DNA of 45,313 nucleotides from NCBI RefSeq assembly GCF_003334315.1, contig NZ_QOWR01000038.1; one strand, 5' to 3'. Below are positions 28,101-31,100 of this stretch, in pieces. Position 1 is the first letter of the stretch. Each line of letters begins with the position of its first letter. This DNA is from Escherichia coli (GTDB lineage: Bacteria > Pseudomonadota > Gammaproteobacteria > Enterobacterales > Enterobacteriaceae). Position numbers: made by a program.

Positions 28101-31100
28101 ACGCGGCAATGGATGGTAATCAAACCTTCCGGCGTCGAATACGACGTGATGACCGCCGACGATATGGTGGTGGTTGAGATAGCCAGCGGTAAGGCGGTGG
28201 AAGGCAGCAAAAAGCCCTCTTCCGATACGCCAACGCATCTGGCGCTCTACCGTCGCTATGCAGAGATCGGTGGCATTGTGCATACCCACTCGCGCCACGC
28301 GACCATCTGGTCACAGGCCGGGCTGGATCTCCCCGCCTGGGGCACCACCCACGCCGATTATTTTTACGGTGCCATCCCCTGCACGCGCCAGATGACCACT
28401 GAGGAGATCAACGGCGAGTATGAATACCAGACTGGCGAAGTGATCATTAAAACCTTCGAAGAACGTGGTTTGAACCCGGCACAAATCCCGGCGGTACTGG
28501 TACATTCTCACGGCCCGTTCGCCTGGGGAAAAAACGCCGCCGATGCGGTGCATAACGCCGTGGTGCTGGAAGAGTGCGCCTATATGGGCCTGTTCTCGCG
28601 CCAGCTTGCGCCGCAGCTCCCTGCCATGCAAAACAAACTGCTGGATAAACACTACCTGCGTAAGCATGGAGACAATGTCTATTACGGGCAGTAATCCCTC
28701 ACGCCGGGGCTTCATCGCCCCGGCACTACGAATTGATATGTTCCTTGCTGTAACGCCGTTTCCACGCTGCTGGCGTTAAACCGGTGTGTTTGCGAAAAAT
28801 CTGCCGGAAAAAGCCAACGTCATTAAACCGTATTGCATGGAGCAGGCCGACAACGTCGAGTCACTGCATAACCTGTTGCTGCCCGCCGATGCGCCATTTA
28901 CGACATTTGAAGGCAAGGGATTGTTCAGCCATAAGATCCTGATTCAGACGCCAGGTTCCCGGTATGAACAGAGCAATCCAGAGCAACAACCTTTGTGGCA
29001 TTACGACGGAGCACCAGCCGCACCAACATCCACCGGTGAATTAAAAACGCCAGCTCACGCCGGTGACAAAGGTAAAACTCTCATTACGATCAATCATCGG
29101 GCTGTCGGTAATCTCTTCCGGCAGCTCGCTGTATCCTGCACTCGCCATCAATACGACGTGCTCTCCTATCGGGTATTTTGCCGTCAGGCTGACATAGGGC
29201 ACCCAGGCATCCTGCGCGGAATAACTTGCCAGACCGCTACGACGGGACTCACTCTCTGAAATGCCATAGTAATAGTCACTGAAATTCTCGTCATAATAGA
29301 GCACGCCCAGCGCAGGTGTCAGCGACAGGCGACCTATCTGCATTTTGTGGAAAACCGATAGCTCCCCCACCCAGCCGTTGCTGTTATCCAGAACGTCCGC
29401 AGCCGCAGAGGCTTTCACAGTTCCCCAACGCTCGTGGTGATACCAGGCAACCCCCGCCATAGCCGTACTATCACGCTTATCAAGCTGTTGCATGGCATAA
29501 TCGTCATTATCGGCAGGGTCAAATTCCAGCGGCATCCAGGATGCGGTCAGGCTAAGTTCATTTTTTTCACTTTGCGACAGAATAAAACCTAACGTGGTCT
29601 GACGAACATAAAAAGAATCACCTTCATAACTAATCAGGGGAATTGCCTTTGTATTTTCATTATAACCGCGATAAGGCGATTCATTATAAGCCGCACCGGC
29701 ACCAATGGATAATTCAGAAGCAGTTGCGCTTGCCATAAAAGGCAACGCAAATAACGCCACAATATTGCGGTTAATTAACATGTTCGGTATTCCATTTTAA
29801 AATAAGATAAAAAAGAGTCGGCATAGTAATGCTTACAATTTCTCCGGTGCAAGATTCATATTTATATAGTAATATATAAAATTATATATAATTGGGCTGT
29901 TGCGATGACAAAATTACAACTTAAGTACCGGGAGTTAAAAATTATCTCGGTAATCGCTGCCAGTGAAAATATCAGCCATGCCGCGACTGTACTTGGCATC
30001 GCACAGGCCAACGTCAGCAAATATCTTGCTGATTTTGAATCAAAAGTGGGTTTAAAAGTCTTTGACCGAACCACCCGGCAGCTGATGCTCACACCTTTTG
30101 GTACCGCGCTGTTACCGTACATCAACGACATGCTGGACAGAAACGAGCAGCTTAATAATTTTATTGCAGATTATAAGCATGAGAAACGTGGTCGGGTCAC
30201 CATCTACGCCCCAACCGGCATAATTACCTATTTATCCAAACATGTAATCGATAAAATTAAAGATATCGGTGATATCACCTTATCGCTAAAAACCTGCAAT
30301 CTTGAGCGTAATGCCTTTTATGAAGGCGTCGAATTTCCTGATGATTGTGATGTTTTAATCAGCTACGCTCCACCAAAAGATGAATCGCTGGTTGCCAGTT
30401 TTATTACCCAATATGCCGTAACCGCTTATGCCAGCCAGCGCTATCTTGAGAAACATCCCATTAGCCGTCCTGACGAACTCGAACATCACTCCTGTATTTT
30501 GATCGACTCGATGATGATCGACGACGCGAATATCTGGCGCTTCAACGTCGCCGGGAGTAAAGAGGTGCGGGATTATCGCGTGAAGGGAAATTACGTTTGC
30601 GACAACACGCAATCTGCGCTGGAGCTGGCACGAAATCACCTGGGGATTGTGTTTGCGCCAGACAAAAGTGTGCAGAGCGACCTGCAAGACGGCACGCTGG
30701 TGCCCTGCTTTCAGCAACCCTATGAATGGTGGCTGGATCTGGTGGCTATCTTCCGTAAACGGGAATACCAGCCCTGGCGGGTCCAGTATGTGCTGGATGA
30801 AATGCTGCGTGAAATTCGCCACCAGCTTGCTCAGTCGCAGCAACTGCGGCCTGAACAAGCGGCGGAAAGCGAAGATTAATGATCGAGATAAAGGTAATGC
30901 ACCAGGGAAAATTCATGAACATGCCCGTATTTACAGGCTTCGTAGTGTAGCAGGTTCTCAAATTTTGAACTTTATGAGTTAGCGCTATCACACAACAATC
31001 AATTATCCGATGATCGATTTGTAGATCATTTTCAGTGTTTTCTAATACCTCCATAGACAAATTGGAGGTCCAACGATGAGTAACCAGCACCCATTTATGC

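What the first reader, a model, noticed from the sequence alone, without database searches (positions are those of the whole stretch)
28726..29040. AraC-family regulator remnant between sgbE and yiaT
The minus strand encodes an unmistakable AraC second helix-turn-helix ending 2 bp after the sgbE terminator hairpin, but the frame is closed about 45 codons upstream. Upstream sequence reads in other frames (for example …LMAEQSLAFKCRKWRIGGQQQVMQ*) and yiaT occupies the rest of the space. It looks like a decayed regulator gene, possibly the former regulator of yiaT or of a lost neighbour.
Basis: seen in the sequence. Interest (0 to 1): 0.35.

Follow-up and report, generated by a model that had tools for sequence, protein, structure and literature searches.

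The report
Deletion scar: known pseudogenes ysaC/ysaD
The stretch is the leftover of a 4.2-kb deletion that destroyed a three-gene sugar-utilisation cluster (regulator, transporter, beta-L-arabinofuranosidase-like enzyme); it matches the E. coli K-12 pseudogenes ysaC and ysaD, so it is ordinary and already annotated.

Summary
The AraC-like reading is real, but it explains only a third of the interval. Window 28726-28829 (minus strand) is the last 33 codons plus stop of an AraC-family regulator. It is 32/33 identical to the intact 271-aa gene of E. coli 042.

Window 28830-29019 is not more of that regulator. It is a plus-strand internal piece (aa 559-621 of 656) of a glycoside hydrolase family 127 gene.

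Compared with strains that keep the cluster, the window lacks two segments:
- 4021 bp holding most of the AraC gene, a GPH/MFS transporter gene and most of GH127;
- 210 bp holding the GH127 3' end and REP elements.

The order sgbE-AraC-GPH-GH127-yiaT is found in Citrobacter, Enterobacter and other genera, so the intact state is ancestral. Among 5426 complete E. coli genomes, 2461 carry this same scar and 2314 carry the intact cluster.

The remnants show pseudogene-type decay. MG1655 annotates them as ysaC (b4648) and ysaD (b4649).

"Decayed in other frames" and "regulator of yiaT" are not. This is already known and of low interest.

The parts
27999..28694 (+). sgbE (annotated araD by PGAP), L-ribulose-5-phosphate 4-epimerase. 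Intact left flank of the scar.
   Evidence: 231-aa ORF. Annotated in strains CP53, K-12 and 042.
28703..28724 (.). GC-rich hairpin (8-bp stem, 6-nt loop) in the convergent sgbE / AraC-gene intergenic space. It is kept in both intact and scar strains. It has no U-tract on either strand.
   Evidence: Fold -19.9 kcal/mol, z = -4.4. Not called by the terminator scan. Conserved in 042 and B.
28726..28829 (-). 3' remnant of an AraC-family regulator gene, equal to K-12 pseudogene ysaC (b4648). It holds 33 codons plus stop (aa 239-271 of 271) and a 2-base partial codon. It has no start codon, no promoter, no ligand-binding domain and no first HTH.
   Evidence: 95% DNA identity to 042 up to the break. 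32/33 aa, E = 6e-23. HTH_18 model positions 52-80/80. PGAP pseudogene. MG1655 ysaC at the equivalent coordinates.
28829..28830 (.). Junction of deletion 1. It removed 4021 bp relative to E. coli 042 (L002 4980-9000): AraC codons 1-237, the divergent promoter region, the whole GPH transporter gene and GH127 codons 1-557. There is no microhomology at the junction.
   Evidence: BLASTN blocks and junction sequences.
28830..29019 (+). Internal fragment of a GH127 gene, equal to K-12 pseudogene ysaD (b4649). Codons start at 28831 and cover aa 559-621 of 656, in the C-terminal beta-sandwich region. No catalytic domain is present.
   Evidence: 56/63 aa, E = 1e-38. 90.5% DNA identity to 042. 100% identical to K-12. 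PGAP partial pseudogene. MG1655 ysaD.
29014..29019 (.). Junction of deletion 2, a single copy of CCAGCC. In 042 two CCAGCC copies flank the 210 bp lost here (L002 9191-9400): the last 35 GH127 codons and a REP-element-containing intergenic region.
   Evidence: Overlapping BLASTN blocks and junction sequences. 042 sequence with REP-like palindromes.
29020..29040 (.). Surviving 21 bp of the GH127-yiaT intergenic region.
   Evidence: Aligns to L002 9407-9427.
29041..29781 (-). yiaT (MipA/OmpV-family outer membrane protein). Intact right flank of the scar.
   Evidence: 246-aa ORF. Annotations.

Best explanation
Window 28726-29040 is a non-functional deletion scar. The ancestral arrangement was sgbE > < AraC-family regulator, then GPH-family glycoside:cation symporter > GH127 hydrolase > < yiaT.

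In intact strains the likely working is as follows (inferred from family knowledge, not tested here). The AraC-type regulator controls the divergent transporter-hydrolase operon. The symporter imports a beta-L-arabinofuranoside-type glycoside. The cytoplasmic GH127 enzyme, which has no evident signal peptide by my reading of its N-terminus (no predictor was run), releases L-arabinose.

In the lineage of this window two deletions removed everything except three pieces: the last 33 codons of the regulator (minus strand), 63 internal codons of GH127 (plus strand) and 21 bp of intergenic DNA. The deletions are 4021 bp with a blunt junction and 210 bp between CCAGCC repeats in a REP-rich spacer.

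The remnants have since drifted neutrally. The scar haplotype is old, has one origin, and has been moved between E. coli backgrounds by homologous recombination. It is the same locus as the K-12 pseudogenes ysaC and ysaD.
For: Shown directly:
- Three collinear blocks align with E. coli 042 and define both deletions to the base.
- Both remnants are homologous at protein level.
- The intact regulator has AraC_binding plus HTH_18 domains. The transporter hits TIGR00792 (GPH:cation symporter) above its cutoff. The hydrolase matches PDB 4qjy, a GH127 beta-L-arabinofuranosidase, with E = 2e-236.
- About 70 species carry AraC(-)/GPH(+)/GH127(+). The full order sgbU-sgbE-AraC-GPH-GH127-yiaT-yiaU is present in Citrobacter, Enterobacter, Lelliottia, Pseudocitrobacter and Huaxiibacter, so the intact state is ancestral.
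- 2461 of 5426 complete E. coli genomes hold the scar; every sampled row aligns as one uninterrupted piece at >=96% identity. 2314 hold the intact cluster.
- Polarised with outgroups, the GH127 fragment has 7 clear scar-specific substitutions. Five change residues that are invariant in all intact Escherichia orthologues (L>M, G>V, W>L, A>T, Y>S). The 4 substitutions specific to intact E. coli alleles are all synonymous.
- The AraC remnant carries different damage in different scar strains: Y>F in the conserved GYF here, R>Q in K-12.
- The MG1655 reference annotates ysaC (b4648, minus) and ysaD (b4649, plus) at the equivalent coordinates. The genotype string yiaS-ysaC:...::ysaD-yiaT appears in PMC12361893.
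- E. coli B has flanks identical to the window (27340-28387 and 29420-30903) yet carries the intact cluster. This points to recombinational exchange of the allele.
Against: Nothing contradicts the scar reading. Open points:
- The order and mechanism of the two deletions are unknown, and no intermediate allele was seen.
- The substrate of the E. coli GH127 enzyme and the effector of the regulator are inferred from homology only. NCBIfam's only hit for the enzyme is 'aceric acid hydrolase', below its cutoff.
- The plus-strand frame through the GH127 fragment is still open. It lies inside a mechanical 157-aa ORF at 28786-29259, so translation cannot be excluded from sequence alone.
Confidence: 0.97

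Rival explanations
1. One reading: a complete regulator gene decayed in place through frameshifts and stops. Its N-terminal part would still lie upstream in other minus-strand frames, and it formerly regulated yiaT.
For: The minus-strand frame closes after 44 codons, and short minus-strand ORFs exist upstream.
Against: - Upstream of 28829 the DNA aligns to GH127 codons 559-621 on the plus strand, not to AraC.
- AraC codons 1-237 are simply absent.
- There is room for only 315 bp, whereas the intact gene is 816 bp.
- The AraC gene co-occurs with GPH and GH127 in many species that have no yiaT next to it.
- yiaT is de-repressed in a yiaU mutant (PMC9068703).
Confidence: 0.01
2. The short state is ancestral, and the AraC-GPH-GH127 cluster is an insertion acquired by other E. 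coli lineages.
For: About half of E. coli genomes lack the cluster. The sgbE-aldB interval is variable in content.
Against: - An empty site would not contain in-frame pieces of the two end genes.
- The same gene order is found in several other genera.
- Scar-specific changes hit residues conserved in all orthologues.
Confidence: 0.01
3. The scar has acquired a function. Candidates are a long 3' UTR or termination region for yiaT, which is on the same strand as the AraC remnant and ends at the 28703-28724 hairpin, or a small chimeric protein.
For: The scar is kept with identical junctions in 2461 genomes. yiaT transcripts that pass the weak hairpin/T-run at 29063-29040 would run through the scar to the strong hairpin. 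An open plus-strand frame exists.
Against: - Identical junctions are expected from common descent.
- The substitution pattern looks neutral, and the remnants differ between scar lineages.
- There is no Rfam match and no promoter-like site inside the scar.
- K-12 workers use this spot as an insertion site for reporters (genotype in PMC12361893).
Confidence: 0.03

Closest known systems
E. coli K-12 MG1655 pseudogenes ysaC (b4648) and ysaD (b4649)
   Same: Same position between sgbE (yiaS) and yiaT, same strands and same junctions. The GH127 fragment is 100% identical and the whole scar is 98% identical.
   Different: The window's AraC remnant differs from K-12's at 6 of 104 bases (Y>F here, R>Q in K-12). 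It sits in a locally divergent patch that also covers the 3' part of sgbE.
Intact AraC / GPH-MFS / GH127 cluster of E. coli 042 (EC042_RS20695-RS20705), also in E. coli B, O157:H7 and O55:H7
   Same: It is the progenitor-type locus, in the same place between sgbE and yiaT. The remnants align to its two ends.
   Different: It is complete: a 271-aa regulator, a 466-aa transporter and a 656-aa hydrolase, 4231 bp more DNA than in the window.
GH127 beta-L-arabinofuranosidases (Geobacillus enzyme PDB 4qjy; Bifidobacterium longum HypBA1, PDB 3wkw)
   Same: The intact E. coli enzyme matches them over its full length (E = 2e-236 and 1e-152).
   Different: The window keeps only 63 codons of the poorly conserved C-terminal region. 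The activity of the E. coli enzyme has not been tested as far as I found.
AraC/XylS-family sugar regulators (AraC, RhaR/RhaS, MelR)
   Same: The intact 042 protein has a cupin-type AraC_binding domain plus a double-HTH HTH_18 domain, and is divergent to a transporter-hydrolase operon.
   Different: Its best NCBIfam hit (AraC) scores 61 bits against a cutoff of 208, so it is not an AraC orthologue. The window holds only the last third of the DNA-binding domain.

Membership tests
AraC/XylS-family transcriptional regulator (functional member) | Complete C-terminal DNA-binding domain of about 100 aa with two helix-turn-helix motifs (Pfam HTH_18) | tested here: not met
   The window peptide covers only model positions 52-80 of 80. 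The intact 042 protein covers 1-80.
AraC/XylS-family transcriptional regulator (functional member) | Intact ORF with a start codon and, for sugar regulators, an N-terminal ligand-binding/dimerisation domain | tested here: not met
   AraC codons 1-237 are deleted. There is no AraC_binding match, and no start codon lies in the AraC-derived part.
AraC/XylS-family transcriptional regulator (descent from such a gene) | Significant homology and synteny with an intact family member | tested here: met
   32/33 aa, E = 6e-23. Same position next to sgbE in 042, B and other genera.
Glycoside hydrolase family 127 (functional member) | Catalytic (alpha/alpha)6-barrel domain carrying the Cys nucleophile and zinc site (feature recalled from knowledge of HypBA1) | tested here: not met
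   Only aa 559-621 of 656 remain, all C-terminal to the catalytic domain.
Glycoside hydrolase family 127 (descent from such a gene) | Significant homology and synteny with an intact GH127 gene | tested here: met
   56/63 aa, E = 1e-38. The parent protein matches PDB GH127 enzymes at E = 2e-236.
K-12 pseudogene pair ysaC/ysaD | Same locus, strands and boundaries as b4648 and b4649 of MG1655 | tested here: met
   MG1655 ysaC 3750813-3750914 (-) and ysaD 3750918-3751109 (+) map to window 28726-28827 and 28831-29022. 98% DNA identity.
Pseudogene (neutral evolution) | Lineage-specific substitutions without purifying selection | tested here: met
   On the scar branch, 5 of 7 polarised changes are non-synonymous and hit invariant residues. 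On the intact E. coli branch, 0 of 4 are non-synonymous. Different lesions occur in different scar strains. The numbers are small.

The most novel reading that the evidence does not exclude
The scar may be a long-lived null allele rather than a recent accident. It is held at about 45% frequency against about 43% for the intact cluster. Its haplotype branched off before the common ancestor of the three intact E. coli alleles compared here (042, B, CUVET17-1418). It has been moved by recombination into backgrounds otherwise identical to cluster-bearing strains. This would fit niche-dependent (balancing) selection on use of plant-derived beta-L-arabinofuranosides in E. coli. One study also found the GH127 gene among genes that co-segregate with invasiveness in IBD isolates (PMC11879602).
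Probability: 0.15. Interest if true: 0.3.

Novelty: already known. Interest (0 to 1): 0.08.

Why it matters
It matters little. It corrects the reading of a 315-bp interval: two pseudogene fragments on opposite strands, not one decayed regulator. It also identifies them as the annotated K-12 pseudogenes ysaC and ysaD. A mildly useful by-product is the population picture. E. coli is split almost evenly between strains that keep and strains that lack an AraC-regulated GPH-transporter/GH127 cluster that is ancestral in Enterobacteriaceae. K-12 work therefore says nothing about that pathway.

Tried and rejected
- Rfam scan of 28400-29400 at E <= 1 gave only a sub-threshold CRISPR-DR hit on the hairpin. 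No RNA family is present.
- Promoter/terminator scans found nothing convincing inside the scar. The 28818-28803 'terminator-like' site lies inside AraC coding sequence and is also present in intact 042. The sgbE-proximal hairpin has no U-tract, so 'terminator' remains an assumption.
- I checked whether the recently named small protein gene ysaE lies here. It is paired with hokA elsewhere, so it is not relevant.
- I tried to polarise the GH127 fragment changes with distant PDB homologues. The region is too poorly conserved to help. Close outgroups from the genome scan solved this.
- I looked for microhomology at the 4021-bp junction and found none.
- Literature searches found no biochemical study of the E. 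coli GH127 cluster. They found only a correlation with invasiveness and the YiaU-yiaT link.

Full report
**What is in the sequence**

The window around the finding reads as follows. sgbE is at 27999-28694 (+). A GC-rich hairpin lies at 28703-28724. A 315-bp gap follows, and then yiaT at 29041-29781 (-).

On the minus strand the gap ends with ...RFNDVGFFRQIFRKHTGLTPAAWKRRYSKEHINS*, with the stop at 28726-28728. The stop-to-stop frame is 44 codons. Pfam places this peptide at positions 52-80 of the 80-position HTH_18 model (E = 2e-4).

**What it derives from**

A megablast of 28690-29045 against 5426 complete E. coli genomes split them into two groups:
- 2461 genomes cover the whole query in one piece.
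- In the others, bases 25-140 of the query lie in an intact 'AraC family transcriptional regulator', and bases 141-330 lie about 4 kb away in a 'glycoside hydrolase family 127 protein'.

In E. coli 042 the interval between sgbE and yiaT holds three genes:
- a 271-aa AraC-family regulator (-);
- a 466-aa MFS transporter (+);
- a 656-aa GH127 protein (+).

Aligning the window to that locus gives three collinear blocks:

| Window | 042 locus (L002) | Identity |
|---|---|---|
| 28600-28829 | 4750-4979 | 95% |
| 28830-29019 | 9001-9190 | 90.5% |
| 29014-29150 | 9401-9537 | 98% |

The window therefore lacks two segments:
- 4021 bp with a blunt junction and no microhomology;
- 210 bp flanked in 042 by CCAGCC repeats, containing the GH127 3' end and REP-like palindromes.

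At protein level the two remnants match their parent genes:
- The minus-strand remnant equals aa 239-271 of the regulator (32/33, E = 6e-23).
- The plus-strand reading from 28831 equals aa 559-621 of GH127 (56/63, E = 1e-38).

The 11 codons that extend the 'AraC frame' upstream of 28829 are antisense readings of the GH127 fragment.

**It is already annotated**

PGAP marks both pieces as partial pseudogenes in K-12 and in strain CP53, one of the records that match the scar interval (28690-29045) at 100%.

The MG1655 reference record names them ysaC (b4648, 3750813-3750914, minus) and ysaD (b4649, 3750918-3751109, plus). These map onto window 28726-28827 and 28831-29022. A published K-12 reporter genotype reads yiaS-ysaC:...::ysaD-yiaT (PMC12361893).

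**Direction of change**

One scan of species-representative genomes with the 042 GH127 protein returned 80 loci. A tblastn map of the neighbours gave this picture:
- AraC(-)/GPH(+)/GH127(+) occur together in about 70 species.
- The full order sgbU-sgbE-AraC-GPH-GH127-yiaT-yiaU-...-aldB occurs in Citrobacter, Enterobacter, Lelliottia, Pseudocitrobacter and Huaxiibacter.

The intact arrangement is ancestral and the window state is derived.

**Evidence of decay**

I used Escherichia sp. E1V33, E. whittamii, Citrobacter and Salmonella diarizonae as outgroups.
- The GH127 fragment of the window is identical to K-12's.
- It has 7 clearly scar-specific substitutions.
- Five of them change residues that are invariant in every intact Escherichia orthologue: L>M, G>V, W>L, A>T and Y>S.
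- The 4 changes specific to intact E. coli alleles are all synonymous.

In the AraC remnant the window has Y>F in the conserved GYF, while K-12 has R>Q. Different lesions in different scar lineages fit drift after a shared deletion. The numbers are small but consistent.

**Age and spread (inference)**

Several sites where the scar differs from intact E. coli alleles are ancestral in the scar. The scar haplotype therefore branched off before the common ancestor of the three intact alleles compared here (042, B, CUVET17-1418).

E. coli B carries the intact cluster, yet it is identical to the window over 27340-28387 and 29420-30903. Differences are confined to about 28388-29419. This is the pattern expected if homologous recombination swapped the allele into an otherwise identical background.

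**Population states**

| State | Genomes of 5426 |
|---|---|
| Scar | 2461 |
| Intact cluster (>=80% coverage) | 2314 |
| Match to the sgbE-yiaT query but none to the scar interval (the four sampled rows: sgbE only) | 507 |
| No match | 134 |

The one such genome I opened, strain JNEC-KY173, has sgbE directly beside aldB and also lacks yiaTUVW. A few genomes show IS1-associated erosion of the locus.

**How the intact system most likely works (inferred, not tested)**

- The regulator has an AraC_binding cupin domain plus HTH_18.
- The transporter passes the TIGR00792 GPH:cation symporter cutoff.
- The hydrolase matches Geobacillus GH127 beta-L-arabinofuranosidase 4qjy at E = 2e-236 and HypBA1 at 1e-152. 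By my reading its N-terminus shows no signal peptide (no predictor was run).

The likely scheme is an effector-responsive AraC-type regulator controlling a divergent operon. That operon imports a beta-L-arabinofuranoside-type glycoside and cleaves it in the cytoplasm to L-arabinose.

None of this can operate in the window strain. The promoter region, the transporter gene and both catalytic and DNA-binding cores are gone.

**On yiaT**

- The AraC gene co-travels with GPH and GH127 in many genomes that have no adjacent yiaT.
- yiaT expression changes in a yiaU (LysR) mutant (PMC9068703).

**Residual possibilities**

yiaT and the AraC remnant are on the same strand. Read-through yiaT transcripts would therefore cross the scar and meet the 28703-28724 hairpin. 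That could make the scar part of a 3' UTR, but nothing indicates a selected role.

**Verdict**

This is a real feature, correctly spotted in part. It is an ordinary deletion scar made of two known pseudogene fragments. Novelty: already known. Interest: low.

Noticed in passing
window 30904-45313: The window stops matching the E. coli yia chromosome 28 bp into the 3' end of yiaV. An ISAs1-family element follows (ORF 31076-32215). After it comes a polysaccharide/O-antigen-like cluster of about 12 kb (manB, manC, gmd, fcl, flippase, EpsG, glycosyltransferases). That cluster is 100% identical to the 93.6-kb record NZ_CP048012.1 of E. coli RUT3575. Only 1 of 5426 genomes covers most of it. This is either a real IS-associated rearrangement or an assembly chimera.
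   Followed up: partly
window 28388-28811: The 3' part of sgbE, the hairpin and the AraC remnant form a locally divergent patch, about 9% different from K-12, B and 042. The 5' part of sgbE is 100% identical to E. coli B. SgbE here has three derived changes at residues conserved even in Citrobacter, and two of the three also in Salmonella (QNE>QNK, GANA>GDNV). This is probably an imported recombination tract.
   Followed up: partly
L007 7001-9281 (E. coli JNEC-KY173): A third state of the locus: sgbE lies 46 bp from aldB. The AraC/GPH/GH127 cluster and yiaT-yiaU-yiaV-yiaW are all absent. About 500 genomes match sgbE but not the scar or the cluster.
   Followed up: partly
L003 5871-8633 (strain C9); L008 4886-6165 (strain TW01221); hit H45 (strain M171-1): Independent IS1-associated deletions chew into the same neighbourhood: yiaJ...AraC and GPH...yiaU in C9, and yiaL...yiaT in TW01221. 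The sgbE-yiaU interval is repeatedly eroded.
   Followed up: no
L002 9299-9427 (E. coli 042): The GH127-yiaT spacer of intact strains carries REP-like palindromes (for example GCCTGATGCGACGCTTAACACGTCTTATCAGGC). Its length varies among intact alleles, and deletion 2 of the scar removed it.
   Followed up: no
L010 4657-6364 (Escherichia whittamii): The sgbU hit ends 44 bp from the AraC gene and no sgbE was detected between them. No yiaT was found downstream of GH127 in L009 or L010. This suggests further rearrangement in these Escherichia lineages.
   Followed up: no
L079-L084, L087 (Bradyrhizobium spp.): GH127 proteins 71-73% identical to the E. coli enzyme occur in several Bradyrhizobium genomes without the AraC/GPH neighbours. 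That is unusually high identity for such distant taxa and may reflect horizontal transfer.
   Followed up: no
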